From: Callorhinchus milii
Lineage: Eukaryota
Assembly (NCBI RefSeq): GCF_018977255.1
Contig: NW_024704754.1
Location: 18,848,001 to 18,912,000 of the forward strand
Direction of reading: 5' to 3'
DNA length: 64,000 nt
Each line of letters begins with the position of its first letter. Positions within the stretch are counted from its first letter, which is position 1. Of this stretch, positions 31,913-55,600 are shown piece by piece. Made by a program: the position numbers and the translations under genes. Under the pieces are notes generated by a model. The model made no database searches and was not told the origin of the DNA. It worked only from the letters and a program-made list of their open reading frames with translations.

Positions 31913-32100
31913 TCACAACTCAGCAGACTCGGGGATGATGGGGATCCAGCCTCGGGGACGACGGTTTGAAGTTGGGGCGGTTGGCGATGCGTTCGGCTTC
32001 CATCGTCACCGGCTCCACCATCTCCTCGACCAACTCGAAGGCCGGTGGCGGGAAGGACCGGGCAGGGAATAGGGCTGGCGTGCCGAAGGGGGTCGCTACC
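31913..32100 (-). pseudogene. MYOZ3: Duplicate of the MYOZ3 terminal exon only, with a 1-bp insertion
   Basis: Matches 52630-52816 except for an extra T at ~31965 that breaks PNFNRRPRGW. Upstream exons are cut off by the 25-N gap. Confidence 0.8.
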
Positions 32101-32188
32101 CTGAAACAACACAGTGTCTGAGGTCGGGGAGAGCATACATCATATCTCTAACCCCATTCCCTGCTCTCTCTCTCATCGTGTCTGTGCA

Positions 32189-32213
32189 NNNNNNNNNNNN
32201 NNNNNNNNNNNNN
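32189..32213. other. 25-N assembly gap at the exact junction of the two duplicate copies
   Basis: Exactly 25 N; sequence to the left repeats at ~52904 and sequence to the right repeats at ~15134. Confidence 0.95.
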
Positions 32214-34299
32214 TGTCTGTCTGTCTGTGTGTATCTGTGTGTCTGTCCGAAGTGTTTTTTTTTTGTGGGGTTTCGAAGCTGCTTTGGAATTTGATTTATT
32301 CCAAGTTCTCTGACCTGACGTATCAATCCTCACATTTTGTGAAGGCGGCGAAAAAAAACGATTTTGTAAAAGACAAATGTAAAAACCCGATTCAAAAAAA
32401 CGTTTTTTTTCTGTCAATACAACGACAAAAAACTTTTTTTTGTAATTGTAAAGTTTTTTTCCTTAAAAAAGGCTGAGTTTGCGATATTCACTCTCTCCCC
32501 TCGGTGTGGGCGGTGTGGGGTGGGGGGGGGAGATGCTGTCTGACCCTTTATTGCCTCTACCCCCCCACCATCACCCCACACTGAAGCCCTGAGCAATGTG
32601 GGCTTATGTGAGCAACAATAATAATAATAATCCTTCATTTGAAAGCGCCTTATAGTCCTCGAGAGTCTCAAAGGCTTCCAGGATATACTGTAAAGTGTAG
32701 TGACTGTATATTTTGTGGGGAGGGGCAGGATTCTCTGGGTACCTTTATCCCTATTCTACCTCCCCCCCACCCACCCACCACACTGAGAACCTGTTGTTGT
32801 GTGGGTGGGTGATGTCTGGGATTTGCCTGTGGGGTAGTGGTGTGGGGGTGGAGAGGGGGAATTTCAATAGCAGTCGGGTGCGGGAGCCTGCGATTCAAAA
32901 CACTGTCTTGCGAGAAGGTTGAAGGTATCAATACAAGTTGTTCTGTCTCCCTCCCTGCCCCGCCTTGACTGAGCCCAGAGTCAATGTTGCCAAGTGTAGT
33001 GACTGTTAGTTACTAAGCTGTGTCGCCTCACTGCTGTGAGGTTTGCTGAAAACGCAGCGAATTGTCTTAAACACCCCCTCCATCATCCTATTGACAGCCG
33101 GGCAGATAATGCGATCGATCGATCATCATTGCCGCATTTCATTCTGCATCCCACCTGCATTGGTGCTGCATTGGCGCTGCATTGGCGCAGGAACAGCCCC
33201 GTTGGATGCTGCAGTTTAGCAACTGCTGCACGTTGGGTTATAATGAAATGCACAGGAGATGTCAGTCTCCCTCTCGAGGCGGATGTTAAAGATCTTGCTT
33301 TGTGACTGGAAAAGAGAAGGGAGTCTCTCTCTCTCTCTCACCCGCCCGGTGTCCAGGCCGACAAACCCACAGATTCATCAATAATTCACTCTGACCTTGT
33401 GGCAAATTGGCTGCCAAATCTGCTTAACACACGCACGCACACACACACAAATAAACGCGCGCGCCACACACACACACACACACACACATATACGCACGCA
33501 CGAGCACACACATGTACACAGTCACTAACAGTCACTAACAATTGACAGTGATTCCCTGTGGAGCGCTTAGCGATGTCTCAGTGTTAAAGACACTGCTTGC
33601 TGGTGCTCGCTCCGCCACTGGAGCGCTCTACTCTAATCCCATTACCTGCGCTCTCCCCAGGGTGTCCAGCTACTCTGCCATCACCCTCTGGAACTTCACC
33701 CCACAGTCCCTCCAACCCGCCCCCTCCCTTGCCTCCTTCTAGACCCATCTCAAGACCTCCTCTTCAACCGTGCCTTAGATCACCCTCCAGCTTTCCCAAT
33801 CCCGACCCCCCATCTCGGGTCTGAAACACTGACTGTTCAGCGCCTCGGGAGTCCTCCCGCGTGAAAGGCGCTCTATACGCGTCATTTTGTTGTTGTTATT
33901 GTTGTTTGCTTCCCCCACTGGAGCTCTCAACTCTAATCCCAGCAACATGCTGTCTGTGTATCTTTGATATGGTTTGTCAGTCACTAATCCGATTCCTGTT
34001 AACGATGACATTCTGGGTTGAGATACACCAGACCCTTGTGCTATAACCTGCCCCTGGCTGGCGGGGGTGGGGGCGAAATTAGATATTGAGGATAAAGTAC
34101 CGTTTAATGAGCAGTGGGAATATCAGTGTGATGTGAGCCCAGGCATTGCTCTGGTGATCTCCCCCCCCCACCGCCCCCACCCCAGGCGTTCTCACTCACA
34201 GCCTTTATGAAGCTGCGTAAATAATTCAAACGCTTTATTTTACTTTTCCGGCAGATTGTTCCCACTCACAGTACAATCCCTTCTCCATTCCGGTGAAAG

Positions 34300-37200
34300 A
34301 TGTCGGCCAAAGGCAAGGTAAGCGACCAGAGAGTGTGAGAGCGGCCCTGGTGTGAAAGGCCAGCGACCCCCCCACCCTCCCTCCCCCATTGCCCACTCCC
34401 CCCAGGCATCACTCAACAACCAATTACATCTGTATAGCGCTTACCATCTCAAGAGGACGTCCAAAAGCGCTCTCTCCCTTTCCTCCCCGCTTGCTGCCGC
34501 ATTCCTTCTAGAATTTGCTGACACAATCTGCCTACTCTCCCCACCGCCACCCCCACCCCGAGTGCAGCCTGGATCACAAATTGGAGGGTGGGGAGTGGTG
34601 GGTGTGGGGTTGTGGAAGCCACAATTTCTGGGCAGCAGATGACTGACTCTTGCCAGGCTGGTCTGCTGCCCCCCCCACCTCGCTCGCTCCTCAATGGGCT
34701 ACTCCCCCATCGACCACCACCACCACACAAGGGTGAGCAGTATCTCCCCCTCTTCCCCCCACCCCCCAACAGCCTGACTGTGCATAACATGGAGATGACT
34801 TGCAGAGTGTTTGGATCAGGACTGTGTTTAGGTTTCGGGGTGTGTAAATCCCTTCAACCCAACCTAATATGGCTCAGTTTATACTGTTCGAAACCCAGCT
34901 CGTCTGTGTATTGTCACTGCTGGCGGAGCTGACTCATGGTGGGGAGGGGGNNNNNNNNNNNNNNNNNNNNNNNNNNNNNNNNNNNNNNNNNNNNNNNNNN
35001 NNNNNNNNNNNNNNNNNNNNNNNNNNNNNNNNNNNNNNNNNNNNNNNNNNNNNNNNNNNNNNNNNNNNNNNNNNNNNNNGAGGGGTAGCTAATAACACGG
35101 ATGAGGTGTTACGGCCGTTTAAGACCCCAGCCTCCCCCCTCACCGCTGGCGGCTGTTATATATAAGGGTATGTGGGCCCGGTGAGAGGCTATTTATAACC
35201 TCAGGCAGCAGCTGCCGGGAATCAGTGTGCGGGGGGAGAGCCTGGATTACACACAGCTTCCCATAAGGAATGTCAGTAAGAAGATCTGACAGGTGCTGGG
35301 GAGGGGGGAGAGCTTTCTCTCTGTCTCAGACCCACCCACTGCACCAATCTGCCTGGCCCGTGCTGCAGTGTGTAACCTTGTGTTGTGATTAGCGTCCGAG
35401 CCCATCTTTTCCGGCTCCTCACACAGCAATGGAAAGTTTTTAGGAATACTGGAATTTTAACCTCTCCTTAAATGGATGAAGGGAATGGGGTTAGAGTAGA
35501 GAGCTCCAGTGGGGGCGCGAGCCCCAGCACAGACACGATGGGGAGAGAGAGAGAGACCAGGGAATGGGGTTAGAGTAGAGAGCTCCAGTGGGGGCGCGAG
35601 CCCCAGCACAGACACGATGGGGAGAGAGAGAGAGCAGGGGATGGGGTTAGAGTAGAGAGCTCCAGTGGGGGAGCGAGCCCCAGCACAGACACGATGGGGA
35701 GAGAGAGAGAGACCAGGTAATGGGGTTAGAGTAGAGAGCTCCAGTGGGGGAGCGAGCCCCAGCACCGACACGATGGGGAAGAGAGAGAAAGAGAGCAGGG
35801 AATGGGGTTAGAGAGCTCTGGATTCCCGGGATCCTGGAGTCTGTAACTGTGTGTAAATCCTCTCACAGGGAGCAAGGCCTGGATACAGAGGTTCCATTAA
35901 AGCGTTCCCGAATTTTGACGCCAATCAGGATGCGGAGAATTTGTATCAAGCGATGAAAGGATTTGGTGAGGAATGGCCCTGTGAATGGCGGGTGTGAGCA
36001 CGGAAATCCACCAACTTCCCCCGCCCGCTCTGAGCCTTAAGCACATCGTAACTGGCTGCTAAACGATAGTTAATCGCTGTCCGTTAATTAATCGCTTAAG
36101 ATCTCTAGGACGCTACCCTATGTGAGGGGGCGCTGTATAAATACAAGTTGTTGTTGCTGCCATTCCCAACAGGCAGTGACAAGGAGGCCATCTTGGAGCT
36201 GTTGACATCCAGGTCCAACAACCAACGCCAGAAGATCCTCATCAGCTACAAGACGCTCTTCGGGAGGGTAAGCCATCACTGGGTGCCGCCTGCGGTCTCT
36301 ACACCGACAGTCACTTCATGGTGACAGGGCACGGCTTGGGGGGGGGGGGGGTGGTTGGGTTTGTGGTGCCGAGCTGTAGTTGGTGATGCCGGGCAGAGCT
36401 AAGCTCCGGAATATAGAACAATTGGAGGGGATCTTATAGAAACCTATAAGATCATCAAAGGGCATAGAGTAGATAGTGGGAGATTGTTTCCCCCGGTCAG
36501 AGAAACTAAAACCAGGGGTCACAACCTTAAAATCAGAGACAGCCCTTTCACACTGAGTTGAGGAAGAACTTCTTCACTCAAAGGGCAGTGAATGTATGGA
36601 ACTCACTACCCCAAAGGGCTGTTGACGCTCAGTCCTTGAACATATTCAAGACTGAGATACATAGATTTCTTATTGCAAAAGGGATTAAGGGATATGGGGA
36701 TAAGGCGTTGGGGGGGGGGGTGATATGGGAGAGGGGGGTCGATATGGGGGTAAGGCAGGGTCAGGTTATTAGCTGGAGTTAGATTAGAAGATCAGCCACG
36801 ATTGAATGGCGGGGCAGAAGCTCGGAGGGCCGAATGGCCTCCTCCTGCTCCTACATGTTATGTTACCCTCTGCCCAGCACTGGGTGACGGTGTGTCCCTC
36901 ACTGACAGGACCTGATTGATGACCTGAAGTACGAGCTGACGGGGAAGTTCGAGCGGCTGATCGTGGGGCTGATGAAGCCGCCGGCCGTGTACGACGCCAA
37001 AGAGCTGAGAGACGCCATTGAGGTAAGTTTCCCCCCTTCCCCCCTCCCCCTTAACCTCGAGACACCTCTTAACAGCCCCCTCACCCCACACCGTTACTGA
37101 CTGAGGCAATGTGTCTGCATTCCCCACCCTGGCCTGACCTCTCCCTCTCTCACTCCCTCCCTCTCTCCCTCCCTCTCTCCCTCCCTCACTCCCTCTCTCT

Positions 37201-40200
37201 CGCTGTGTGACAGGGGATGGGGACGGATGAGAAGTGCCTGATTGAGATCCTGGCATCCAGGACCAACAGCCAAATACACCAGCTGGTCTCCGCCTACAAC
37301 GAGGGTGAGCTTCTCCGCGCTCGACAGCGGTCGCGTAGCATGTAGCGTGGGCACCGCGGTGAAAGAACCAACAACATCTCCCAGTGACTGGCCAACCGTC
37401 TGTGGGCAATCACCACACACCTGTCTGTCTGTCTGTCTGTCTGACCCCTCGCTGTGTGCAGGACTACTGCGCTGTTTGACCACAAAATGCACAGTCTCTA
37501 CATTTCACCGTCAAACTCTTCTGAGAGATTCCCATGTGNNNNNNNNNNNNNNNNNNNNNNNNNNNNNNNNNNNNNNNNNNNNNNNNNNNNNNNNNNNNNN
37601 NNNNNNNNNNNNNNNNNNNNNNNNNNNNNNNNNNNNNNNNNNNNNNNNNNNNNNNNNNNNNNNNNNNNNNNNNNNNNAGTCGGATCTGGAGGCTGACATT
37701 GTTGCTGATACCGCGCAACATTTCAAGAAGATGTGTGTTGTTCTGCTTCAGGTGAGGAGCGGGAAGTGGTGGGGGTGGGGAGTGGGCAGTGGTGGGCGGT
37801 GGGGGTGGGGAATGGGCAGTGGTGGGCGGTGGGGGTGGGGAATGGGCAGTGGTGGGCGGTGGGGAATGGGCGGTGGGGTGGGGAATGGGTGGGGGTGGGG
37901 AATGGGTGGTTGTGGGGGTGGGGAATGGGTGGTTGTGGGGTGGGAATGGGCGGTGGTGGGCAGGAGGTGGGAAGGGGAAATGGGGGACCTGTTTGCGTGG
38001 CGCTGACCCTGTGTCTTGTCCACAGGGACCCGTGAGGAAGACGATGTGGTCAGTGAGCACCAGGTGGCAGAAGATGCAAAGGTGTGTGAGTGTGAGTGTG
38101 CATGTGAGTGTGAGGGTGGGGGTGGGGGTGGGGGGGGGGGACAGGCCAGGCTGACGTCTCACTATGATTGTAGGAGCTGTTCGAGGCGGGGGAGGAGCAG
38201 TGGGGCACAGAGGAGAGCACCTTCATCACCATCCTTGGCAACCGCAGTAAACAGCACCTCCAGCTCGGTACAACCTCACCCTCACCCCCCGCCCCCACCC
38301 CCCCATCTGTGTGTGTGTGTGTCACTGTCTGTATGTGATTGTGTGAGTGTGTGTGAGTGGATGTGTGTTAATGTGTGCAAGTCTGTCTGTGAGAGTTTAT
38401 GAGTTTGTATCTATCCATCAATGTTTGGGATGAGTCTATCACTGTGTGTATCACTGTGTGTGTGTGTGTTTGTGTGTCTGTCACAGTGTGTGTGTGTGTG
38501 TTAGTGTGTGTGTGTCTGTCACAGTGTGTGTGTGTGTCTGTCACAGTGTGTGTGTGTGCGTCTGTCACAGTGTGTGTGTGTGTGTTAGTGTGTGTGTCTG
38601 TCACTGTGTGTGTGTGTGTGTGTGTATAAGTGTGAGTGTGTGTGACACTGAAATGTCTCTGCTCTCTGTCTCAGTGTTTGATGAGTACAGTCAGATTGCT
38701 GGGAAGGACATTGAGGAGAGTCTGTGTGGGGAGCTGTCCGGGGACTTCGAGAAGCTGATGCTGGCGGTGGGTACGTATAACCCCATTCCCCGTCCCCACT
38801 CCAGGTCCAACCCCCCGCCCCCCCCTCCCGGGCTCCAACTTACGTTCCGTCTGATTCTCTTTCCACAGTGAGGTGTGTACGGAACACTCCGGAATATTTT
38901 GCCAAAAGACTGAACAAAGCGATGCAGGTGCGTGGGATGGGGGTGCAGGTGGGGGGGGGGGGGGTGCAGATGTGGGGGTGGGGATGGGGGGGGGGTTAAG
39001 GGGTTTAATGCTTTAATACATTTGCTGTCAGTCTCGCCCTCAGCCTGGCTCAGTCGCTGCGAGTGTCCTCTCGGGATCGGGAGGTTGTGGGTACAGCAGT
39101 TTGTTTGGGGTTTTGTTCAAATCTNNNNNNNNNNNNNNNNNNNNNNNNNNNNNNNNNNNNNNNNNNNNNNNNNNNNNNNNNNNNNNNNNNNNNNNNNNNN
39201 NNNNNNNNNNNNNNNNNNNNNNNNNNNNNNNNNNNNNNNNNNNNNNNNNNNNNNNNNNNNNNNNACCTGTGACAACACGCTGATCCGTATCATGGTGTCG
39301 CGGAGTGAGCTGGACATGCTGGATATCCGGGAGGAATTTCGCAACAAGTACGAGGAGTCTCTGTACCAGACCATCCGGGTGAGTGAGCACCAGCCGAGCG
39401 GCAGCACGGTGCGTGTGCTGTGCTAATTATCCCCACGCTCACATCACAGCCACCGTCTCTCCTCTGCTTTCAGGGTGACACCTCCGGTGTGTACAAGAGA
39501 GCCCTTCTCAGGCTGTGCGGGGGCGATGACAAGTGAGTCTGGGGGGGCTGTGTGTGTGTGTGTGTGTTTGTCGGGGTGGGGGGGGCAGTGTGTGTTTGTC
39601 GGGGGGTGGGGGCGTGCAGTGTATGTGGGGGGGGGTGGGGGGGGCTCACTCTGGCTGACACACGTTCTGCATGTTGCAGTGTCGCTGGTGAGTTCTTCCC
39701 GGAAGCAGCACAGTTCGCCTATCAGACATGGGAGCTCAGCGCCTCCATGCAAGTGCAGGTAGGTGTGTGTGTGTGAGCGTGTGTGTCCCTGAGCCCCCCC
39801 CCACCACCCACCATACCTCCGCTGCCCTGAATGCGCCCCCCGCCGTTTGACACATTGAAAACCAGCTTACGGTTCAGCGACATCTCTTCGTCTGTCTGAC
39901 AGATGAAGGGGACGGTACGAGACGCTGTGGGTTTCCAGCCTGAAGTGGACGTCAAGGCTCTTCGCAAAGCCATGAAGGGGTTCGGTGAGTGGGCAGCAGT
40001 GGGGGTTGGGGGGGAGATAAAAGATATGGGGGGGAATGGTGGGAGCGGAGAAGCGGTCACTCTGCTGTCACTCTGACTCTCTCGGGGCCTCCCACTGGTC
40101 CCAGCCACTGTTTCAGGCACAGATGAAGACACCATTATTGACATTGTGACGCGGAGGAGCAATGCCCAGCGGCAGCAGCTCAGGCAGCAGTTCAAGTCCC

Positions 40201-40417
40201 AGCTCGGCCGGGTAAGTCACTAAGGCTCTCAATAACAAGTCACATAAACTCGACAGCACGTACACCCCACACAGCCTCCCCTCCCCGGGGGAACCTTCCG
40301 TTCCCCTCTGTGACATCCTGTAGCTCAGTAGTTAGAGGCCCCGGGTTTGATTCCCGGGCGGGACAGTGTGAAACCTTAGGCAAGTTTCCTTACTCCACAC
40401 ACACATACACACATGTG

Positions 40418-40449
<32 letters not shown>

Positions 40450-43204
40450 AGTGCCTCTGTTTACCCAGCAGTCAGGACAGGAGGTGGGATTGGGGTAATG
40501 TTGTTGACGTGATGTCTGTCTGCTGTAGGACCTGATGGCGGACCTGAAATCTGAGTTGGGCGGAAACTTAGGGCGAGTGATCCTGGCACTGATGATGCCA
40601 CAGAGCAGTTTGACGCCAAGCAACTGCGTAAAGCCATCGAGGTGAGAGACACGCGGCGGGGGTGGTGGGGGGGGGTCAGGGATAGGAACATAGGCACAGG
40701 AGGAGGCCATTCAGCCCCCGAGCCTGTTACGCTATTCTATTAGATCATGGCTGATCTGTACCTCAACTCCAAGGCGAGGCTGGGGTGGGGCAGCTACCGG
40801 CAGTGTGTGTGTGTTTCAAATGCTGTGAGCCCCTACCCTGCGTGGGGGGGGGGCCTATATAAATGAACGTTGTTGTTGTTGTGCAGGGTGTGGGCACTGA
40901 CGAGCGGGCGTTGATCGAAATCCTCACCACGAAAACCAACACGGAGATAAACCGGCTCAGAGAGGCGTATACAGAGGGTGAGTGGCCGGGGCTGATCGGA
41001 GGCTTTACCAGTGAGAGCGAGAGGTGTTAGAGTGACACAGCCCCCTCTCTCTCTCTCTCTCTCTCCCCCGCAGGCTATCACCGAAGCCTGGAGGAGGACA
41101 TCGAGTCCGACACGTCCGGTCACTTCCAGCGGCTCTTGGTCTCCCTGGTGCAGGTACAGCCCCCCACCTCCCCTCCCACCACAGTGTGTGGTTACCACTT
41201 AGCCACCCCCAGGCCACCATGTCCGCGCCCCCCCACGCCCCCAGCGACGTTGATTCCCCCCCATCCCACACAATCACCCCCCGCCAGCTTTGCCCTCGGA
41301 CCCCCGCGCCCCGGCGATAGTTTCTCACTGTGCCTCTTGCCTCAGGGGAACCGTGAGGAGGGGGACGCTGACCTGACCCGAGCCATGGAGGACGCAAAGG
41401 TAATGGAACCACACTGAGAGCGGGAAGACGGAACGAGGGAAGCGGGAATCTCCAGGGGGAGCGAGTGGGCTGATGTGGTGTGATACTGAGAGCAGTGAAG
41501 CTGCTGACACTGAGCTGACATCTCTGTGTCTCTCTCTCTCTCTCTCTCTCTATGTCTCTCTCTCTCTATGTCTCTCTCTCTCACCATCTCTTTCCCCTCT
41601 CTCAGGTGCTGTCTGGAGCTGGTGATGACGACTCCGATTCAATGGAATCAAAGTTTATCAGTGTTCTGTGCACCAGGAGCTTCCCCCACCTCAAGAGAGG
41701 TACGTGTGTGTGTGTGTGTGGTTGGGGGGGAGTGGGAGATGGGGAGGTATGTGTGTGTATGTGGGGGTGGGAGGGGAATGACAAGATACGTGTGGGGGAA
41801 GGGGGAGGTACGTGCGGGTAGATGGGTCAGTCTCTCATTGTAGCCCCTGTCTGGTCGGTGATGGGGGTAGGAGTGGGGTGTCGCGATTGCCTCAGTGACT
41901 GACTCTTTCCCACGTTCAGTGTTTCAGGATTACATTAAACTAACCAACCGCGACATCGAGCAAACCATCAGGAACGACATCTCCGGGGACCTGAGGAACT
42001 CTCTGTACGCCATCGGTGAGTCACTGTGGGTGGGGGGGTGGGGAGGGGCACGGGGAGTGGGAGTGGGGGGCAGCGACATACTATGACGGGCGCCAACAAG
42101 ACTTAAAACCACGTCTGCATGTCCATGATCTCCTGACACTTGGTAAGGAGGAAGGAGTTACTCTCTCCTGGTGTCCTGGTCAACATTCCCCACAAATACA
42201 CAGTCACTACACTTGGGTGTAAGATCAACGCAGGGATTAACGTGCTGACCTCTCTCTCTCTCTCTCTCTCTCTCTAGTCCGTTGTATTAAGAATAAACCA
42301 GTGTTCTTTGCTGATCGCTTGTACAAGTCAATGAAGGTAATTTCTCAGCCTGTGTGGATTCAGGCTCAGTTCACCTCTCAGCCAGTGGGGGCAGTGTTAG
42401 AGTGTCCCTTCGGGGCGGAGGAGCCGGTCCAGGGATTCTTTTTCCCCCCAAAATTAACCAAACCACTCAAGAGGAAATGATTATTGTTAACTGATTTTTG
42501 GGGGGTCAGCCGGGTGTCTGACATGTGCGGAAACCCATCACCGTTGCTCGAGGGTCTCCAAACCCAAGCTGAGAATTCCAGGCATCCCATCTACAACAAC
42601 AACAACAACAACAAGATTCCATTTATAAAGCGCCTTTCACGTCAGGAGGACGTCCCAAGGCGCTGACATGGAATGGTTGTTGGAATGGGAAGCTCTCTCT
42701 CTCCCTCTCTCTCCCTGGAGGGATGCATCCTGCTTACCTAATTCCAGATAGTATGAGGCGCAAGTTGGCAAAAGCCAAGGCTTGGGAGGGAGTCCAGAAT
42801 GTGCGTTGGGGTATCTGCTGGAGTCTAACCAGCTAAACCCACGCAGCTTGCCATTGATATCGCTTGATAATTGATCATTACTGATTGATTAATTGATTAT
42901 TATTAATTATTACTGATATTGTTTGTTATTAGGGCGCTGGGACGGATGACAAGACCCTTATCCGGATTATGGTGTCCCGAAGCGAGATTGATTTACTGAA
43001 CATCCGCAAGGAGTTTAAGGACATGTTTGACATCTCGCTCCACGCCTGCATCGAGGTGAGTCTCGTCACTGCCCACGCAGTTCCGGAACGTTCTTTGGGT
43101 GGGAATTCGGAGACCGGGTTTAATCGGTGTCTTTTGTCCCCCAGGGAGACTGCTCGGGCGACTACTCCCGGGTCCTGCTCACGCTGTGTGGAGGCGAAGA
43201 CTAG
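34300..43204 (+). CDS. ANXA6: Annexin A6, copy 2 (no upstream promoter or exon 1; two 1-bp deletions in exons; likely redundant haplotype)
   Basis: ATG at 34300, stop at 43202-43204, same exon series as copy 1. A G is missing at ~38026 (cacag|ggacc vs cacag|gggacc), a C is missing at ~40600 (atgccacagag vs atgccaccagag), and Y>N occurs at ~38913. Confidence 0.85.
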
Positions 43205-43558
43205 AAGGTCCCGGAACACTGTGCCGTCAACGTGTTCCCCAAGTTTGAAACCGTCCCCCAGTGTGTCACTGCGCTAACCAGTCCCGGTCACTGTGTCCCC
43301 ATTAACCAGTCCCGGTCACTGTGTCCCCATTTACCAGTCACTACAAGCGGAACACCCTCTCCCCCCACAGACACGCATGCGAAAAACCACCTAACAGCAC
43401 AGGCGGAAACAATACTCTGACACAGACAGTACAGGTGGAAACACACACACACCACAGGCAGAAGCAATATATATATATACACACACACACACACAGTACA
43501 GGTGGAATCAATAACCCTCCACTCTATAGGTGGGAAAGGGCAGATTGTTGAGGGTTAC

Positions 43559-46311
43559 CTCGCGCTCCATGTTCTGGGTGTAATATTCCTTGTTCACGTC
43601 AGACTTAGGCATATCGTCCTTCAGTGACATCCCAGCGTCTCGCACCTGGATCGGCAACCCTGAGGACAGGCAGGTCAATCAATCACAGAACACAGGCAAC
43701 AACAACAACTTGCATTTACAGTGCCCTTCACCCAGGGTGGCATCCCAGAGCGCTTGACAATGATGTAGCACGATGCCAAGCCGGGGGGAAGGGACTGTAG
43801 GCACAATCGAAGAGGAAGGTCTTCAGGCATGACCTGAAGATGGGGAAGAAGGGGGCGAGGCGGAGGGTTAGAGGGAGAGTGTTCCAGAGTTGGAAGCATA
43901 GTGGCTGAAAGCGCGGTCACCGATGGTGGAACAGAGGCGGAGCAGGATCAATCAATCACCCGCAGAGCGAATCTCCCTACCCCCCGGAATGCCCTGGGTT
44001 CTCACCATATTCCAGGTCCAGGAGGCAGGTCTGACACACGTTCTTCAGTTTGCTGCAGGTCTGACAAACCTCCGTTTTCTTAAAGCGCATCCGAGCCCCT
44101 GGGCACCAGCGGAATACAGTGAAGGGCCTCGAGCAGATCTGGGGGGAGGGGGGAGGTCACAGGGCACTTGTCATCCAACCCATCATCACACCCCATTACA
44201 TCCCAAATACACCCCCCACCCCTACACACACTCCCCACACCACCACTGTGAGTGCAGTAAAGCAGTAAACCCATACAATGCTGATGAGATGTGTGCAACA
44301 GGGGGTGAACTGAAACAAACAAACAAATTACATTTACACAGTGCCTTTCATGACGGGAAGATGTCCCAAGGCGCTGGAAGACTTACCTTGCATTCCTTTC
44401 CATATTTCTCCTTTGTCTGAAACACCAAACAAACAACCCAGTTACACACAAGAATTATAATAATAATAGTAATAATAATAAAAACCGTGAATTTACAGAC
44501 AAAAATTGTGGAGTAAATTGAGAGTTTGCTTTCTGTGCGTTTCACACACTTCATTGGCTTTGCGCAGGTTTCTCAGGTCTGAAATGCCACCCATTCCCAG
44601 TGAGCGGGAAGTCAGGGACTTACCATGCGGATGTAGGGGTTTTCTCCCAGACATGTCTGGCACAGGATCGGGAAGTCCTAAACAAAGTGATAAGAGTACG
44701 TTAGCCAGACCACAACACAGCAACACTGTGAACAACAACAACAACAAAATGACACGTATAGAGCGCCTTTCACGTCGGGAGGACGTCCCAAAGCGCTGAA
44801 CAGTCAGGTATCGGGGCCCGAGCCTGGGGGGGGCAGGCGGGGGGGGGGGGTGTAGGGGTGAGGGAAGGCAGAGAGGTGGGAGCGAGACCCGAGGTGCGGT
44901 CGAGGAGAAGCGCTAAACAGTCAAACGCAGAAACAATGGGTTCAGTGCCAATCGCAGCACATCCGGGAAACCTCTCCCCATTCCCGTTCATCTCAAGACT
45001 TAGCTCTTTGACCGTACTTTTGGCCATTCACCCCCTTACCCCCCACCCCACCCCCTACCCTCCACCCACCCCTTACCCTCCACCCCACCCCTTACCTCCA
45101 CCCCACCCCCTTACCCCCACCCCCCCCTTACTCTCCACCCCCACTCCCAACTCCCAGCCGTCCAGCGCTTTGGGAGGTCCTCCTGACACGGAAGCCGCCG
45201 CGCGGGTGCGATTTTTTTTTTTTCCTTTTTGCCGCTGGAAACGCTCGGGGCGGGGAGTGGGGAGTGGGGTTGGGGAGTGGGGGAGTGGGGGCGGGGGGTG
45301 GGGAGTGGGGGGGGGAGCGGGGGGGGGGGGGGGAGTGGGGGGTTGGGGAGTGGGAGTGGGGGAGTGGGGAGTGGGGGGTAGGGAGTGGGGAGTGGGGAGT
45401 GGGGAGTGGGGGTGGGAGTGGGGAGTGGGGAGTGGGGGGGTGGGGGAGTGGTGAGTGGGGAGTGGGGAGTGGTGGGGGGTGGGAGTGGGGAGTGGGGGTG
45501 GGAGTGGGGGGTGGGGAGTGGGGGGTGGGGAGGTGAGTGGGGGAGGGGGGGGGGGGTGGGGGAGTGGGGAGTGGGGGTGGGGGGGGGTGGGGGGTGGGGA
45601 GTGGTGAGTGGGGGAGTGGGGGAGCGGGGGGTGGGGGAGTGGGGGAGGGGGTGGGGAGTGGGGGCGGGGGGAGTGGGGAGTGGGGAGTGGGGAGTGGGGG
45701 AGTGGTGAGTGGGGGGGTGGGGGGGGCGGCGGCGGCGGCATTCACCCGACGGAACGCGCATCGGAAATCCCCCAAAACCGCTTCGCAGCGCCGAGACGTC
45801 GTCTCCGCCACACGATAACCGGCGCCGCTCCGGGAACGCGCCGCGTGTCACCAGAACGACAGCGACAGCGACATTGGCGTTCGGGGCTGTGAGAACGGCT
45901 TCAAACACCGGAGGATTGTGACTGAAAAACTGTAATTAATAGAACACGAGTCACTGCCCCAGAAACCCGGGACCCGGAGGCTGAGAGCGACACTCCCTCT
46001 CCTGGGACTCTCTCTCTCTCTCTCTCTCTCCCTGTGGCTCAGCGGCGGCGGGAGTGTGGGGGGAGTGGGGGGGAGTGGGGGGAGACACGGGGTGTGCGGT
46101 GGGGAGGGCGGGAGAGTCCAGGCCTCGAGTGTGTGGGAGGCCTCGGGACCCGGGGGGGGCCCTCCGCACCGCCTCCCCGGGGACCCCCACCGGCCCTCTC
46201 CTCTCGGTCTCCCCGGGGCCCCTCTCCCCCCCCCCCGGGCCCCCCCGGGCCGCTCACCGCGTCCTCCCAGTTCTGTCTGTTGTAGGTGTTCGCCCCCAGT
46301 GAGGTGGCCAT
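43559..46311 (-). CDS. RBM22: Pre-mRNA splicing factor RBM22 (Cwc2/Ecm2 homologue) exons 1-5, in inverted orientation
   Basis: Minus-strand exons 46311-46258 ([18 protein letters not shown]), 44677-44624 ([18 protein letters not shown]), 44416-44387 ([10 protein letters not shown]), 44138-44006 ([44 protein letters not shown]) and 43659-43559 ([10 protein letters not shown]...[12 protein letters not shown]). All are GT-AG and in phase with exon 6. Confidence 0.95.
45248..45730. repeat. (GGGGAGT)n-type G-rich tract with strong G-quadruplex potential in RBM22 intron 1
   Basis: About 480 bp of G-runs separated by agt or t; a C-rich (CCCCTTA/CCCCA) tract lies just before it at 45030-45150. Confidence 0.9.
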
Positions 46312-46450
46312 CTTCCCGGGTCCCACAATGCCCCGCGCCGCCCGGAAACCCCGGCCCGACTGCGGGGCGGAAGTGGCCCCTCTCAGTGAGAGCCGCGGCG
46401 TCACTCGCTCCGCGCTCCGGGCGGAACCCCCTGAGCTGTGGCTGTTGGTT
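45720..46450 (-). promoter_or_regulatory. CpG island and housekeeping promoter of RBM22
   Basis: High CpG density around exon 1, ETS cores (ccggaa, gcggaagt at ~46367), GC box ggggcgg and a YY1-like AAGATGGC overlapping the ATG. Confidence 0.7.
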
Positions 46451-47014
46451 CTGCACAAGAAGTTCCCCCCCACTCCGCCCCCACCCACAACCAACCAACC
46501 AACCAACCAAGTCCCAGCAGAGCTCGAGTGCTCAGGTGCGGGTTTCAAGTACTTCGGCGCTGAGACCATCCTTTTATTTTTCTTTGTTTCCGTCAAAGAT
46601 GTTGGCGGCCAAACAAGCGGTTGGGTCCTGTTTGTCCCCAAAAACCGTCCGCACAACAGGGACACGTGGGAACATGTGTGATTGTCAGCCAAATTGTTCT
46701 ACATGTCACACCGGGAGTGTCCGCCAGGCAGCGCCCGAGCTCCGCCGCTGGGCAGCCACCACACGTGCAGTGGCTTATAACAGTCAATTGCATTTGTATG
46801 TGGTGCCTTTGATTGAGGTCGGGAGGGCGTCACAAAGTGCTGAGCGGTCAAGGGTTTGGGTCGTTGCATTTACATCGAAACGTGTACATGTTCTGCACAG
46901 AAGGCAGACACTCAGCACATGGGGTGTCCCTTCCAACACACGGGCGCTTCAAACTGAAGCTCACAATATTATAGACAAAGCACAAAATACCGCGGGTGTT
47001 GGCAATCTGAAAAC

Positions 47015-47210
47015 AAAAACAGGAGTCGCTGGGAAGACTCAGCGGGTCAGAGGCAGCGTCTACGGAGAAAGGAAAGGGAGTCAACGTTTCGGGTTCACGA
47101 CCCTTCGTCAGAACGGCTAATTCAGTTGTGGACCCGAAATGTTGACTCATTTTCTTTTCTCCATAGATGCTGCCTGACCTGCCGAGTGTTCCCAGCAACT
47201 CCTGTTTTCA
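47015..47210. mobile_element. Inverted pair of Penelope-like terminal sequences with a hammerhead-like core
   Basis: 47016-47098 is approximately the reverse complement of 47128-47208 (acccgaaa.gttgactc...tctcc.taga.gctgcctgacc.gc.gagt.ttcccagc.actcctgtttt). The minus strand at 47111-47082 reads CTGACGA-AGGGTCGTGAACCC-GAAACGTTG. Confidence 0.6.
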
Positions 47211-48544
47211 CTTACAATATATAACAGGCCAAGGAACCTGTCTGCTGCTCAAGTGAGTGCTGAAAGATGCTGCACTATTGGACAAACCTCCGGGTTAACT
47301 CGTCACCCACCTCTCTCATGGCTGTTTGCCATGTGAACATGCCCAGCTTTTGCAGCCACTCCGAGACGCGACCCTGTGTGAAGCGTTCGATATAAATCCA
47401 AGTTGTTGTAGTTTCTCCTGGTAACCCAGATGTCTCATTTCAGCTCTGAATCAAGCTGTCCTTCACTGTATCTTCTCCACACCACCCTGTCCTGGTCTGT
47501 CTAGTAATAGTGACCAGAATTGGTCAATGGCTCAGGGCCAGCACGATGTGCTATTTGCAAATCCCCCACCGCCTCAAGGGCCTATTACATAGTAAAGAAT
47601 CAGAAGCCTTCAGAAACATGGGTTCAGTTACATTTATTGGTTAAATCACACTAATTAAGAGCAATAGTTTAATACGCTGGAATATCACAACTATAAGTCA
47701 CAACAGAAGCAGTGCAATAAGCCACCAAACTCCAAATTCTCATTGGAAATTGGGCAATAATAATAATCCTTGCATTTGATATAGCGCTTTATGTCTTCGA
47801 GACGTCTCAAAGTGCTTCACAGAATATACTGTAAAGTGTAGTGACTGTATATTTTGTGGGCAAAATGCGTTAGCCAATTGCACACAGCAGTGTCCCACAA
47901 ACAGTCGTGGACCTGCAATGGTCCTTTAGTGTTGCCTCGGTTCTTCAGGGCGTCCATCAGTATAGAGAGAGAGAGAACGCCCCAGCACTACAACCTCAAC
48001 AAAAAACTTACTGAGCACTAGTGTGTGTGTGTGTGTGTGTGTGAGAGGGGGTGGGTGGGGGGTAAAATAGGTTACAGAAATGGTTTGCAATGATGTGAAG
48101 ACAGTAAGTTTCCTGCCTCATACACCAGACATGGGAGCGTCAATCGCATCAGAAGCTTGTGAAGACATACCCATTGCCCCAAATCCTGGACTAGTCTGGA
48201 TCGGCTGGCAACACACAAGTCTCCCAATTTCAGATAAATTGGAATGAATGGGAGAAAGGCGAACGAACGAACAAACGGCTTCTCATTTACTCTTGGCGGT
48301 TCCCCATCACTGAGGCACAGACACTGAGATAAGATGCAGCAGATTTACTGTGACTAAGGTCCTCGGACCTTCTCTCAAACAGCTTCCCTTAAGAAACGCA
48401 AGTAGTTAAAAGCATATGCGGACGGGCGGCTTGTATAAACCTCAGCCAGTCCCTGCTCACCCCTCCTTCCCCTAGGCCACCGTGTGTGAGGAGGTTGTTG
48501 GTTCTGCTGGTGAGGTGGGGGGGAGAGGAAAGGGTGTTTTCGTC

Positions 48545-48575
<31 letters not shown>

Positions 48576-48710
48576 GGAGGGGGAGTTGTTCTGCCTGTAG
48601 TTTGTGTGGTGGGGTGAGGGGGGCGTGGCTATTGTTTCCGCCTGTGATGTGGGGAGGGAGGTGTTGTTCTGCCTGTGTGGTTCCTGTGCTGAGCTGGTTG
48701 TTGTCTGCAG

Positions 48711-51109
48711 ATCCAGGGCTCTGATGGGACGAGGCCAGTGGGGGCGCTGGGCAAGGCCACCAGCTCCAGTGACATGCTGCTGAAGCTGGCTCGTACCACC
48801 CCTTACTACAAGCGTAACCGCCCCCACATCTGCTCCTTCTGGGTCAAAGGCGAGTGCAAGAGAGGAGAGGAGTGTCCCTACAGGTAAACACAGCCACAGT
48901 GCTCCCCCCACCCCACCCCCCGGTGGGCAGGAACCTTGCGGTACTCCAAGCCCGTGCTGGGGTTAACCTGTGATCCATCGTTTCTTTCAGTGCCTTGGGA
49001 CGTCCTTCCAACGTGAAAGGCGTTCTATACATGTAATTTTGTTGTTGTTTTGCTGCCTGCGGTCGAAGGGGGAAAAATTCAATACAAATCTGGGGAAACG
49101 CTAGTTCATTGAGCAAATAGTAATCGTATGGAACATTGATTCTTTCAAAAGCAAGTGAGATAGATTTCTGTTAGGAAGTAATACCTGGAGCTACAGTATA
49201 TGGTTCGGGACACGACATGTGAAAGAGACGGCCAGGACGGTGGGAGGTGAACTAGATGGACCTTGTCTTTTTGTCCAGCAAATTCTTCTGTTGTTGTGCT
49301 CAGACACGAGAAGCCCACGGACCCTGACGACCCTCTGGCTGACCAGAACATTAAGGACCGTTATTACGGCATCAATGACCCGGTGGCTGACAAGCTGCTG
49401 AAGCGAGCGGCCACCATGCCCCGGCTGGACCCCCCCGAGGACAGGAGCATCACCACCCTGTATGTGGGGGGGCTCGGAGAGCAGATTTGTGAGACAGAGC
49501 TACGGTGAGTGGCCCCACCAACTCCACAGCCCCACAGCCTTCTTGCTCCACGCACAGACCTGCCCACTCCACATCCGCGCCCACCTTGCTCTCAGCCGTG
49601 TCCCCTCCCATTCTGCAGCCCTGTCCCCCTTCTGCCCCACATCGCCACCCCATCCCTTTCTGGTTCCCAGCCCCTCCCCCCTCTTATCCGGCACCCCGCC
49701 CACTGCAGCCCCACCGTTTCGCGCTTCAGTGTGTCTGTCTGTCTTGTGAGTTTGTTTGTCTCTGTTAATGTGGGAGTCTTGAGTGACTTTGAATCATCGC
49801 AGTTGCTCTGTGAGGGAGGGAGGGAGGGTGTTCTCGAGGAAGGAGGAATGGAGGGTTTCAGCTTCTATCAGGGGCCAGTGTGTGCACAGGTGTGTTGCTG
49901 ATTCCCCTCTGTCTCTCCCCAGGAATCACTTTTACCAGTTTGGGGAGGTCCGGTCGATCACGGTGGTGCAGAGACAGCAATGTGCCTTTATACAGTTTGC
50001 CAGTAGACAGGCCGCAGAGCTCGCTGCTGAGAAATCCTTCAACAAACTCATCATCAACGGCCGCCGGCTCAACGTCAAGTGGGGGAGGTGAGCGTGCGGG
50101 CAGGGCAGAGGGAGGGAGAGTGTGTGGGTGGGCGGTGGGGTTGGGTGTGAGAGTGTCCGTGGTTGAATGTGTGTATGTGTGGGAGGGTGAGTCTGTGTGT
50201 ATGTGGGGGCTGAGTGTGTGTGTGTGTGTTGGGGGTTAGTGTGCGGGTGAAAGTGGAGGGGGTCAGTGGGTGTGTTGGGGTGGGGGTGGGGGGGCGTCAG
50301 GATGTGTATGTGCGTGTAACCTGACAAAGTATCGCTCTGTTGCTGGCAGGTCACAGGCCGCGCGGGGGAAGGAGAAGGACGGGAGCCCGGAGTCGGGGAT
50401 GAAGCTGGAGCCGGTGCCGGGGCTGCCAGGAGGTGAGTCTGCCCTTCACCGGGAACCGTCCCGGTCTGGTCTGCTCCGAGAGACCGCGACTCCAGGACAC
50501 ACGCGCCGTCCGTCACACACACAGACTGACTGACGGGCATTTGCACACGTGTTTGTGTAACGGCCAGAACGACGTGTTCTGACAGTTATCTCTCTCACAC
50601 GCACACTCACTCTCTCACACAACACTCTCTCTCACACTCTCTCTCACACTCACTCTCTCTCACTCTCTGCCTCATAGTCCTGCCGCCCCCCGTCTCAGTG
50701 GAGGAGGAAACTCCCCCCAACTTCTTCAACCTGCCGCCCAGCGCCCCGGCCACGGTGATGAACATCTCGTTACCCCCTCCACCACCCGGTAAGTGCCCGA
50801 GCGGCAGCCGTGCGCCGTCGGACCGAGACGTTTCAAAGCGCTTCACGCAATATACTGTAAAGTGCAGTGACTGTTTCGTGGGCTTCCTGTCTGTTCCCAG
50901 GGTGTGAGATGGCTCAGTGCAGCAGCGCTGACTGATTGTTGGTGTGTAACGCTCTTTCTCTCTCTCTCTCCGCAGGGTTCGGGCCCACAGTCTTCCACTC
51001 TATGCCTCCGCCACCTCCACCTTTCCTCCGGGCCCCGGGCCCCATCCACTACCCCTCCCAGGACCCCCAGCGCATGGGAGCTCACACGAACAAGCCCAAC
51101 AACGCCTAG
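48711..51109 (+). CDS. RBM22: RBM22 exons 6-11, intact copy (CCCH zinc finger, RRM, Pro-rich tail)
   Basis: Exons 48711-48883 ([58 protein letters not shown]), 49304-49504 ([22 protein letters not shown]), 49923-50087, 50350-50432, 50678-50788 and 50976-51109 ([21 protein letters not shown]). Confidence 0.95.
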
Positions 51110-52629
51110 CCCACCCCGCACGCCTCACCTTCCCTTTTATACCAGTCACGGGGGGGATGCGAGGGGGGGGAGAGAGGGTTTGTGTCGCTCTCGCTCTGTG
51201 CCCCCCCCCCCGCCGTCTTGCTTTTATTTGGGGGTTCCAGTGGTTCCCGTATCGCCGCTCGGCTTCCGTGAGGAATGTGTGTTTCCGGGAGGTCGCGGCT
51301 GGCAGATCCGTGGGGAACCCGGGTATGTCAGGCTGAGCGGTTCGAGGATGAGAGATTGTTTGCACACGTCTGAACACGTCTGAAGTTTGGACACGTCTAA
51401 ATTGTCACCCACCCCCCCCACCCCCCACCCACCCCCCACCCACAACCTCTGTGGCTGCCCGCAGTGCCCTCTGGTGGCAGAGTGGGCAAACCACAGGCTG
51501 GGAAGCTAATGAAATGTGTCAAAATCCGGGCTCCCAACTGGGGAGTGTCTGACTCTGAGGGTCCCCCTCGCCCCCGGCCTCCCCCCCCCCCCCCCCCCCC
51601 CCGGCCTCCCCCCCCCCCCCCGGCCTCCCCCCCTATCTAATTAGGTGAAATTCATTTTTGTCACGTGCCCGTGGCTTATTTTATACTGTTGCCTCTCCCA
51701 GCCCCCACCCACTGCCCCGTCCCGTCTCGGTCTCCCTGCAGACCCACTGGGGGAACGGGAGGGTGGGTGTGAGCTGTCGCTGGGTGCGGCTGGTGTCAGC
51801 CAGCGAGGGAGCGAGGCAGGGATTGTCTGTCTGTCGGTCTATCTGTCCAGCCACACGTCTAGAACATAAAGAGACGCATCTTTACTAATTCAGCTTGTGC
51901 CAGTCTCTTTCTTGTTGCGGGACAGGGTGTCAGGGTTGGGAAGGCGGCTGCGCAAACACTGCCGGAACTCACCGCCTGCCCTGGGGCTGCGTTCACAGGG
52001 GGCCGGGAAGCGGGAAAGATCCTCTCCCCTCTCCACAGCCGATTGGAGTTTGGGAAAAGTCACAGGTAGTGTGTGTGTGTCTGTGTACGTGTGTGCGCGT
52101 GTGGCTGTCAGTCACACTCCCTTTGGCAGCCCGACTGGTTTCCTGTGATGCTCAGTGAGTGTTTTGGTGCTGGCTGTCGCCTGGCTCTGAGGGCAATCAG
52201 GACTCTGGTTGTTGCTGTATCTCTTTATTTGCTTCTCGTTCGTGTCTCACTTTGTCGCTTGTCTGCCTCGTGCATTAACACACAACGGTCTGATCGGCCA
52301 GGATTCCCGCGGAAACCATCCCTAAACGTACGTACCCAGCCGGGTGAGGAACTGTGCTTGAAAACGAAACGTGCAAAGCTCTGGGGTAAGAGTGAGGGAG
52401 TGGGACTAGTTGGTGGCTCTTTCAAATCAAAGAGCTGGCACAGGCACGATGGGCCGAATGGCCTCCTTCTGTGCTGGAAGATCATTGAGCCGTCCGGGCC
52501 TGGGAATAGTTAATATGTGACGGGGAGAGGGGAAGGGAATTGTGGTTAACGTTAACCAAAACTTCGCCCCCCTCCTCAGATACACACCCCGGTAATTGCC
52601 CCTCCCCACCCCTCCCGCTGGAAGCTGCC

Positions 52630-55600
52630 TCACAACTCAGCAGACTCGGGGATGATGGGGATCCAGCCTCGGGGACGACGGTTGAAGTTGGGGCGGTTGG
52701 CGATGCGTTCGGCTTCCATCGTCACCGGCTCCACCATCTCCTCGACCAACTCGAAGGCCGGTGGCGGGAAGGACCGGGCAGGGAATAGGGCTGGCGTGCC
52801 GAAGGGGGTCGCTACCCTGAAACAACACAGTGTCTGAGGTCGGGGAGAGCATACATCATATCTCTAACCCCATTCCCTGCTCTCTCTCTCATCGTGTCTG
52901 TGCAGGGGTTCGCTCCCCCACTAGAGCTTTCTACTCTAACCCCATTCCCTGCTCTCTCTCCCCCATCGTGTCTGTGCAGGGGTTCGCTCCCCCACTAGAG
53001 CTTTCTACTCTAACCCCATTCCCTGCTCTCTCTCTCTCCCCATCGTGTCTGTGCTGGGGCTCGCCCCCCCACTGGAGCTCTCTAACCCCATTGCGTGCAA
53101 AGTGGAGCTGGAATCCTGTGAGTTTGGCCAGTCAGCTGTGTGGTGTCAGGATTAAAATAGAGAAACTGTCAGCGGTGACGTCAGCTCCCATTCACGACTC
53201 CCCCCCCCACCGCTTGCCAGCAACACAGCAGCTCTGCCTCGGTGCTGGGGGGTGGCGGGGTGGGAGCATACTAACACAATCTTTGATGTTAAACTGCCGA
53301 TGTCAGCCGGCCTCGGTGTCTGGCCCGAGTCAGGAGGATGTGGATTGGAGCCATATATCAGGACATGAGCTCAGTCCAGGCTGATGCTCCAGTGCAGCAC
53401 TGGGGTGGGGTGGGGAAGCTCTGGGGAGAAAGCGCTGCGTTGTCGCAGGTGCTGTCCTTCACATCGGATCTAAAGGTAAAATCCCGTCTACCTGGTTGCG
53501 TGAAGGTCAGAGTTGCTGTGACACGATTTAACAACAGTTTCTCTGGGGTGGCTGTTCTGTGCTGATGACACTCACCTGTTGAAGCACCTGAAGGCCTGTG
53601 ACTGGGGCGGGGGCTCAGGCAGGTTGGCGCTGATGCTCTCTACGTAGTCGTGTTCTTCGTTCATGGCCTCTGCCCACGGCGAGTGGTAGGACTTGGGCAC
53701 CACCGTGCTGTTAAACCTCTCCGGGGGGATCTCCTTCAGGGGCCCCGAGTAACCTGGTGGAGGGGGCAGAGCATAGCTTGAGGGGGTGGAGCAGCAATTG
53801 GGGGTGGAGCGGAGTGTGAGGGGCAACAGCTGTGTGTGGATTTGGACACTTGTTATTGGAGGCTATCAAAGCAATGGAAAAGGTGAGGTGTAGATCCACT
53901 GCCACGTTCCTGGGGGCCAAGAGAGTCAGTGAAGAAGACATTTGAGAGGTGAGTTTCTTCCCCTCCACTGGGGGTTTAACACAAGCCCAACAACAGCGTC
54001 CCTACTGCACCCTTTGTGAAACAACAACAACAAAATTACATTTATAGAGCGCCTTTCACGTGGGGAGGACGTCCCAAAGCGCTGGAAGGGGCTATAAAAT
54101 TTATTGTTGTCGTTCCCCATCACGTCCCGTGGCCTCTGAGTGAGTTTGATTGTTCGGTACAGGATTCGCCCCCCCAAGCCCATTGGGAACTGGGCTGAGA
54201 TTGGCTCAAACCCATGTCCTTGCTCAGGGACCCTCACACCAACCCACACAAGACTCTCACCGGGTTGGGCTGGGACTGGATTGAAACCCAGAGGTGAATG
54301 ACGACAACTGACCCTCTTCCCCTTCTGCCCTCTGCCCATGTCAGCCCCTCCCTCGGTACTTTGCTGCAGTGTAAAGAGTGTTGATATGGTAACCTATTTC
54401 ACTGTGGTTATGTACAGCACTGTGAGCTGTACCTGGAGCAATGAGGCTGGGGTTCATGTTGAGGTGTTTGCCTGCGGTGAGACTTCCCGGGAGCTTGGCG
54501 GAGACGGGGGGTCCCGGGGCCTTCCCACCCTGTGGGATGAAGATCTCAGTCTTGTAATTCTCCTTCAGCCCCTCGGGGAGCTTCGAGACGCAGCCTTTCT
54601 GCTGGAGGAGAATGAGAGGTTGATTATAACACAGGATGTCACAGGCTAGGACAGGGCAGGCAAGCAGGCGGTCACTCGATACAGGGTGACACCAGAGGGT
54701 AGGAATGAAGACGTCTGTTTGATCTCAACTTTGCAGAATCCTTCTTCCCGTTACAGCGTTGAGCTGTTTCTTAAGTATGTCCCAGCGACAAGCCCTCAAC
54801 CTCTCCCTGATAGCTCGCTCCAGCTGTCTGCTCATCTCATGTGTGAAGTGATGGTTCTGTACAGAGGAGTTTTGCTGGAGCAGAGAAGGTGGGGGGTGGG
54901 TTGTTCATTTATGATCAGTGGTTTTGATCAATAACAACAAATAACATTTACACGGAGCCTTTCACGTCAGGAGGATGTCCCAAGGCGCTGGACAGTCAGG
55001 ATATGCACCTGAGCTGGGGGTTGGGATCAGGAGGGGTGGAGGATAGGATAGGAGGGTGACAGAAGGCGTGGTTGATTGAAGAGGAGGGTCTTGAGATGGG
55101 TCTTGAGGGAGGGGCGAGGCGAAGGAACTGTGGGATGGAGTTCCAAAGGGTGGGGGCAGAGGAAGCACTATTTGTTGTCAGTATCAAGGGGGGTCGGAAC
55201 CTGATCCAGGTGTTTAAGCTTGGTACAGACTGGTCTCACCTGATGCCGGTCATCCGGGCTCTCTATCGTGAACTTGTCCACACGTTTTTGTCGCAAGTGG
55301 AACATCTTGGCCCCTTTGTTGGAGAGTAACGCCAGCTCCTCCACCATCACATCCTGCGGCAGGTGGGCTTTCTTCCCCAGGTTCAGCTGCACTACTTCTG
55401 GGGGGGGGCGGAGAGAAGTCCAGGCAATGAGAGTGAGGTAAAGAGAAGGGAGTCCATCTCCCAGTGTCATGACCAACAATTCTTCCCATAAATAATTCTT
55501 CCGATAAATAGATCTCTGGGAGGTTGTCCTGCTTGAGGGATGCCATATAAATTTGTGTTGTTGTAAATAGTTGACTTCCCCCATGACTGCCTGTGGGGTC

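What the first reader, a model, noticed from the sequence alone, without database searches (positions are those of the whole stretch)
43339..51109. RBM22 is split across both strands: exons 1-5 are inverted relative to exons 6-11
Seen: the promoter and exons 1-5 of RBM22 read on the minus strand (46311 to 43559), while exons 6-11 read on the plus strand (48711-51109). Both halves are intact, and exon 5 and exon 6 are in compatible phase (..NMERE|IQGSDG..). There is no N gap at either junction. Reverse-complementing 43339-~48480 restores a normal colinear gene. The same degenerate intron-5 motif (tgtttccgcctgt / gttctgcctgt) continues across the restored junction. Known: RBM22 is a core spliceosome factor, so a fixed gene-breaking inversion is unlikely without rescue. 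Inference: most likely a misassembly; alternatives are a heterozygous inversion allele, somatic rearrangement or opposite-strand trans-splicing.
Basis: partly seen in the sequence, partly recalled or inferred. Interest (0 to 1): 0.7.

Follow-up and report, generated by a model that had tools for sequence, protein, structure and literature searches.

The report
Split RBM22 gene is assembly error
The RBM22 splicing-factor gene looks split across both DNA strands in this genome assembly, but independent sequencing data from the same species show an ordinary single-strand gene, so the split is very likely an assembly error.

Summary
The split is in the assembly as described: exons 1-5 on minus, 6-11 on plus, all GT-AG, 412 codons when joined. 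Public contigs of the same species contradict it. At the right junction (48481/48482), 0 of 8 laid records cross as assembled. Two run from exon 6's side straight into the reversed exon-5 intron, three leave into sequence not found in the assembly, and one is spliced exon 5-6-7. At the left junction, 3 of 4 DNA-like runs have a listed contig that leaves the assembly; in one the destination is shown, the reversed 1.6-kb piece at 26169-27802. The inner copies carry most 1-bp deletions (38 vs 10; 31 vs 9) and show no doubled contig depth. Best reading: two small pieces written backwards, with the gap between them overfilled by low-quality long-read sequence. A private rearranged allele in the assembled animal is not excluded (about 5%). 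Trans-splicing is about 1%.

The parts
15134..26168 (+). L1: outer copy of the annexin (ANXA6-like) gene end and start of its 3' UTR; higher-quality backbone
26169..27802 (-). X: 1,634-bp continuation of the annexin 3' region, written backwards; third copy of the 29-bp UTR repeat at 27775-27803 on minus, AATAAA on minus at 27254
   Evidence: X3 contig joins L to reversed X; single copy in G000
27803..32188 (+). R1: inner copy of RBM22 intron 5 (3' part) and exons 6-11, with 1-bp frameshift deletions in exon 7 (28722, 28732) and exon 9 (29699); likely gap-fill sequence
32189..32213 (.). 25-N run between the two copies; likely the residual assembly gap (a mask cannot be told apart in the window)
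   Evidence: sequence is discontinuous across it
32214..43339 (+). L2: inner copy of the annexin gene end; likely gap-fill sequence
43340..48481 (-). Y: 5,142 bp holding RBM22 upstream DNA, exons 1-5 and the 5' part of intron 5, written backwards
   Evidence: the 43339-44700 part is single copy in G000
46258..46311 (-). RBM22 exon 1 (coding part)
44624..44677 (-). RBM22 exon 2
44387..44416 (-). RBM22 exon 3
44006..44138 (-). RBM22 exon 4
43559..43659 (-). RBM22 exon 5
   Evidence: its end is the loose end before exon 6 in RNA-guess contig X5 record 7
48482..52904 (+). R2: outer copy of intron 5 (3' part), exons 6-11 and downstream DNA; higher-quality backbone
48711..51109 (+). RBM22 exons 6-11, intact
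48070..48481 (.). far end of Y, covered by deep RNA-guess contigs (depth 165 and 290) and running on into sequence not found in the assembly; likely the 3' UTR of a neighbouring gene
   Evidence: gene identity not determined

Best explanation
RBM22 is an ordinary colinear, cis-spliced gene in the public contigs of this species, and the two-strand split is very likely an assembly error. Shown: the contig order is L (annexin end) then X, and Y (exons 1-5) then R (exons 6-11), with the far end of Y continuing into sequence Z that is not found in the assembly. The assembly instead reads L1, reversed X, R1, 25 N, L2, reversed Y, R2. Inferred route (about 0.6 given an artefact): scaffolding left the two small pieces X and Y backwards. 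A long-read gap filler then closed the outer gaps bluntly, because L truly abuts X and Y truly abuts R. It overfilled the middle gap with the pieces' true neighbours (an 11.1-kb second L and a 4.4-kb second R) and wrote that fill on the wrong strand. Reversing only 27803-43339 turns both inner joins into the joins the contigs show. Which program did this is not determined.
For: (complete list, 8 records, 4 runs, 3 studies): 0 of 8 cross 48481/48482. X2 record 4 (594 bp) and X5 record 6 (207 bp) go from 48482 into the reversed exon-5 intron. Their loose 30 letters match minus 43415-43444 exactly, unique in 144 kb, and in register to within 2 bases (56 vs 54). X1, X2 and X6 records stop at 48481 and share one loose 30-mer with 0 matches in G000 at <=1 mismatch. 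X5 record 7 is spliced exon 5-6-7. X3 record 18 (910 bp) reads 42821-43310 on plus, then 27803-27390 on minus; X1 record 8 and X2 record 15 stop at 43338/43339 with 88 and 115 letters left over; X4's listed contig ends at 43304 and is uninformative. All four odd joins use only two cut points. One-base deletions sit mostly in the inner copies: 38 vs 10 (p=6e-5) and 31 vs 9 (p=7e-4). Contig depth over L/R is 0.79-1.09 times that over X/Y in the 4 runs (weak hint only). Tandem false duplication with a gap between copies is described as a common error (10.1101/2020.05.22.110833, passages). Overfilled gaps are tied to inversions and scaffolding mistakes and to duplicated genes (PMC3504050 and PMC9635638, passages).
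Against: The raw reads of the assembled animal were not seen, and contigs drop rare variants. The two inner joins (43339/43340 and 27802/27803) are exactly the reciprocal pair a real inversion would make. X1-X4 come from one study and their DNA status is not on record; RNA status of X5 and X6 is the tool's guess. One search was swamped by repeats (292,332 pieces not shown), so the lack of assembly-form joins at the left cut holds only for the 32 piece rows listed. No listed contig reached the join at 26168/26169. The 25-N run cannot be told from a mask. That a gap filler leaves exactly 25 N at overfilled gaps is recalled; the paper passage says only that 25 or more N define a gap.
Confidence: 0.93

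Rival explanations
1. The assembled animal carried a real heterozygous inversion of X-Z-Y that breaks one RBM22 allele in intron 5, and the assembler mixed pieces of both alleles.
For: The joins at 43339/43340 and 27802/27803 are reciprocal and blunt. Copies A and B differ at 62 substitutions in about 15 kb, and alleles of both copies appear in reads: T at 48658 is copy A's base; reads at 31062, 31063, 31348 and 31383 show copy B's bases.
Against: It does not account for the other two joins (26168/26169 and 48481/48482) or for the tandem copies. No listed contig from 6 runs in 3 studies shows an inverted join. The inner copies look like low-quality fill.
Confidence: 0.05
2. A real tandem segmental duplication with two different internal inversions is fixed or common in the species, with RBM22 function rescued by the second RBM22-like locus on contig C145.
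For: Two copies at 96.6-99.7% identity in the assembly. An RBM22-like gene with colinear exons 5-8 lies on G000:C145.
Against: Colinear contigs in X2, X3 and X5; no doubled depth. C145 has 0 hits to three host repeats against 95 in 144 kb of C13, and CpG o/e 0.88 vs 0.53, so it is likely foreign DNA; its exons 1-4 were not found.
Confidence: 0.01
3. The split is real and the mRNA is made by trans-splicing of two opposite-strand transcripts, as at Drosophila mod(mdg4).
For: Both halves are intact and in phase, and a spliced exon 5-6 contig exists.
Against: DNA-like contig X2 record 4 and intronic contig X5 record 6 read colinearly across the break in intron 5, which with the 2 extra bases would be about 450 bp. 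Cis-splicing explains the mRNA. I did not look for a promoter for exons 6-11.
Confidence: 0.01

Closest known systems
False tandem duplication at a scaffold gap (heterotype/homotype duplications, 10.1101/2020.05.22.110833; passages read)
   Same: Two near-identical copies side by side with a gap between, lengths near a long read (11.1 and 4.4 kb), uneven consensus quality.
   Different: Here each copy also holds a different reversed piece between the same two cut points.
Overfilled gap from long-read gap filling (PBJelly; PMC3504050 and PMC9635638, passages read)
   Same: Extensions from both flanks that do not overlap, a residual N run, duplicated genes, and a link to orientation errors in the input scaffold.
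   Different: The fill is on the opposite strand to the pieces it extends; none of the passages I read describes that, and the program used here is unknown.
mod(mdg4) trans-splicing in Drosophila (PMC13490949, PMC4387717; starts of abstracts in a search listing only; exons on both strands is recalled)
   Same: On the assembly alone, intact in-phase exons lie on opposite strands.
   Different: Contigs here show the exons on one strand across a short intron.
Vertebrate RBM22 (P0001, named RBM22 of a shark)
   Same: 89.8% identity over the full 412 aa.
   Different: Nothing unusual found in the protein.

Membership tests
RBM22 orthologue | Full-length similarity to named RBM22 proteins | tested here: met
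   89.8% over residues 1-412 to P0001; exon 7 is 95% identical to P0001, the top hit of 543
False tandem duplication | Near-identical copies adjacent across a gap | tested here: met
   25-N run at 32189-32213 (gap and mask not separable)
False tandem duplication | No extra copy number in reads | tested here: inconclusive
   contig depth ratio 0.79-1.09 in 4 runs; the tool warns that depth is a poor copy measure
False tandem duplication | Uneven consensus quality between copies | tested here: met
   1-bp deletions 38 vs 10 and 31 vs 9; frameshifts in inner exons 7 and 9
Overfilled gap | Inserted sequence is the true neighbour of each flanking piece | tested here: met
   L is X's neighbour (X3 record 18); R is Y's neighbour
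Overfilled gap | Assembly history shows a gap-filling step at this place | not testable with these tools
   no assembly logs or raw reads available
Real inversion allele | Reads or contigs that cross the inverted joins | tested here: not met
   0 of 8 records at 48481/48482; none among the 32 piece rows listed at the other cuts; assembled animal's raw reads not examined
Opposite-strand trans-spliced gene | Exons lie on opposite strands in genomic DNA | tested here: not met
   X2 record 4 is colinear across the intron-5 break
Opposite-strand trans-spliced gene | Separate promoter for the 3' half | not tested
   not looked for

The most novel reading that the evidence does not exclude
The assembled animal carried a rare, real inversion allele that breaks one copy of the core splicing gene RBM22 in intron 5 and flips the block of genes between it and the annexin gene, while the other animals sampled are colinear.
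Probability: 0.05. Interest if true: 0.3.

Novelty: not a real feature. Interest (0 to 1): 0.07.

Why it matters
Biologically it does not: RBM22 appears ordinary. Practically, this stretch of the assembly would give a broken RBM22 model, a false extra copy of the annexin end and of RBM22 exons 6-11 with false frameshifts, and wrong gene order. A block that likely holds several genes is missing from the chromosome; part of it likely sits on unplaced contig C896. Anyone using this genome for synteny, gene-loss or copy-number work here would be misled. The pattern (25-N run, inner low-quality copies, reversed small pieces at shared cut points) could help triage similar 'split gene' hits in this assembly.

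Tried and rejected
Inverted repeats at the cut points as a recombination cause: none of the 25 longest of 439 inverted pairs flanks the cuts. A colinear copy of exons 2-5 or of X elsewhere in G000: none among the candidates scored (40 each). The loose 30-mer beyond 48481: no match in G000 at <=1 mismatch, in the 144-kb C13 region or 40 kb of C145 at <=3 edits, or in C896 at <=5 edits. Search of G000 for the dynactin p62 family, to see whether DCTN4 lies in the missing piece: 0 candidates and no control rang, so uninformative. C896 shares only short repeat-like matches with the window region, so its link to the missing piece is not shown. C145 as a rescuing paralogue: rejected as likely foreign DNA. 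No RNA holder is on record as RNA; the RNA label is a guess. at 90% likeness was swamped by repeats, so its joint and loose-end tables told nothing about the cuts. Paper searches for the gene order found one human 5q paper (listing only) and nothing, so the vertebrate gene order used here is recalled. PMC5689209 passages gave nothing on 25-N gaps. The RBM22/trans-splicing search listed 10 of 254 papers, none on a split RBM22 by title or start of abstract. Earlier findings of this scan: none shown. No supplements were read.
Full report
Observation. Exons 1-5 of RBM22 lie on the minus strand (46311 to 43559) and exons 6-11 on the plus strand (48711-51109). All ten introns have GT and AG ends, and the exons join to a 412-aa frame that is 89.8% identical over its whole length to a named shark RBM22. 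No N lies at either junction. The exact junctions are 43339/43340 and 48481/48482.

A genome search with exons 6-7 found a second copy at 99% identity 20.7 kb upstream, inside the window. A self-comparison shows two tandem copies, 15134-32188 and 32261-52904, 96.6-99.7% alike, separated by a 25-N run at 32189-32213. Call the annexin gene end L and intron 5 plus exons 6-11 R. Copy A is L1, a 1,634-bp piece X written backwards (26169-27802), then R1. Copy B is L2, the 5,142-bp piece Y written backwards (43340-48481, exons 1-5), then R2. Both copies end L at the same base and begin R at the same base. Reversed X starts with a third copy of the 29-bp repeat that ends L and carries an AATAAA in the annexin's direction. 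X and the exon 2-5 part of Y have no second copy among the candidates scored in G000. Neither copy, as assembled, holds a whole RBM22.

Independent sequence. The run search listed 14 holders in 4 studies. I laid 6 of them, all as assembled contigs. X1-X4 are four samples of one study; their kind is not on record, but they are genome-sized and cover introns. X5 and X6 are from two other studies and are guessed to be RNA.

On 48070-48980 the list was complete: 8 records, none crossing 48481/48482. Three records (X1, X2, X6) come from the left, stop at 48481 and continue for 255 or more letters with the same 30-letter start, which has no match in G000. Two (X2 record 4, X5 record 6) come from the right, stop at 48482 and continue into the exon-5 intron read on the other strand. 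Their loose letters match minus 43415-43444 exactly, and the register fits within 2 bases. One (X5 record 7) is exon 5 spliced to exon 6 and on to exon 7. Two do not reach the cut.

On 26000-45200 the tables were swamped by repeats and only 32 piece rows were listed. Among them, X3 record 18 reads L on plus and then X on minus from 27803, one repeat unit shorter than the assembly. X1 record 8 and X2 record 15 stop at the end of L with 88 and 115 letters left. X2 record 10 stops at 27803 with 157 letters left. X4's contig ends short of the cut. No listed piece crosses any join in its assembled form, and none reached 26168/26169. So in these samples the order is L-X and Y-R, with unassembled sequence beyond Y's far end. 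That X and Y are linked through that missing piece Z is inferred.

Signs of an artefact inside the assembly. One-base deletions fall mostly in the two inner copies: 38 in L2 against 10 in L1, and 31 in R1 against 9 in R2 (binomial p 6e-5 and 7e-4). R1 has frameshifts in exons 7 and 9. Single-contig depths over L and R are 0.79-1.09 times those over X and Y in the four DNA-like runs (from 23 L/R and 10 X/Y contigs; the L-X junction contig and the second listings of one X2 contig were left out); the tool warns that depth is a poor copy measure, so this is a weak hint.

Mechanism. Shown: the contig adjacencies, the shared cut points and the quality split. Inferred: a scaffold with X and Y left backwards was passed to a long-read gap filler. 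L truly abuts X and Y truly abuts R, so the outer gaps could be closed with no fill. The middle gap was extended from both sides with the pieces' true neighbours, a second L and a second R, which do not overlap, leaving 25 N, and the fill was written on the wrong strand. Reversing only 27803-43339 converts both inner joins to the ones the contigs show, so all four odd joins follow from orientation bookkeeping. Tandem false duplications around gaps are described as common (10.1101/2020.05.22.110833, passages). Overfilled gaps are defined and linked to inversions and scaffolding mistakes in PMC3504050 (passages) and to duplicated genes in PMC9635638 (passages). I put the artefact at 0.93 and this route at about 0.6 of that; haplotype merging or another cut-and-paste step would fit too.

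Rivals. A real heterozygous inversion in the assembled animal would give the two inner joins exactly, and its raw reads were not seen; it does not explain the outer joins or the duplicate (0.05). A fixed duplication rescued by a second locus fails on the colinear contigs, and the RBM22-like locus on C145 is likely foreign: 0 host-repeat hits in 120,746 bp against 95 in 144 kb of C13, and CpG o/e 0.88 against 0.53 (0.01). Trans-splicing is unnecessary, since genomic-type contigs are colinear across the intron-5 break (0.01).

The missing piece. Neighbours in the window are a GEMIN5-domain gene on plus and a calsarcin (myozenin) gene on minus. From recalled vertebrate gene order, TNIP1, GPX3 and DCTN4 lie between ANXA6 and RBM22; two paper searches did not confirm this. 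Unplaced contig C896 (29,976 bp) holds a CC2-LZ exon on plus, glutathione-peroxidase exons on minus and an NDNF-like gene on plus (150 of 170 listed frames scanned), so it is a likely part of Z. No overlap with the window was found.

Verdict. Observation confirmed, feature not real in the samples examined, interest low.

Noticed in passing
G000:C896 (L037-L039), 10349-24337: Unplaced 30-kb contig with CC2-LZ (TNIP1-like, name recalled), GSHPx exons with an in-frame TGA (likely selenocysteine), and an NDNF-like gene whose domain hits fall in different frames; likely part of the block missing between the annexin gene and RBM22.
   Followed up: partly
G000:C145 (L017-L018), 65906-68436 and weak hits to 79540: RBM22-like exons 5-8 in colinear order, about 80-83% identical in protein to vertebrate RBM22s, exons 1-4 not found; the contig lacks the host repeats tested and CpG depletion, so it is likely foreign DNA in the assembly.
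   Followed up: partly
G000:C13, about 649 bases before the window (L012): Another 25-N run; it may mark a similar gap-fill site.
   Followed up: no
window 48070-48481: Deep RNA-guess contigs (165 and 290) cover DNA 1.8-2.2 kb upstream of the RBM22 start codon; an AATAAA lies on minus at 47633; likely the 3' UTR of a gene in the missing piece.
   Followed up: partly
window 45226-45730: About 500 bp of G-rich, low-complexity repeat in RBM22 intron 1.
   Followed up: no
window 28311-28338 vs 49007-49034 and 31651-31740 vs 52365-52456: Clusters of substitutions between the two copies; the first lies in an interspersed repeat; likely polishing with reads from other repeat copies.
   Followed up: no
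window 61903-63999 minus: 699-codon open frame with a weak calsarcin hit (E 0.003), possibly a synaptopodin-family exon (name recalled).
   Followed up: no
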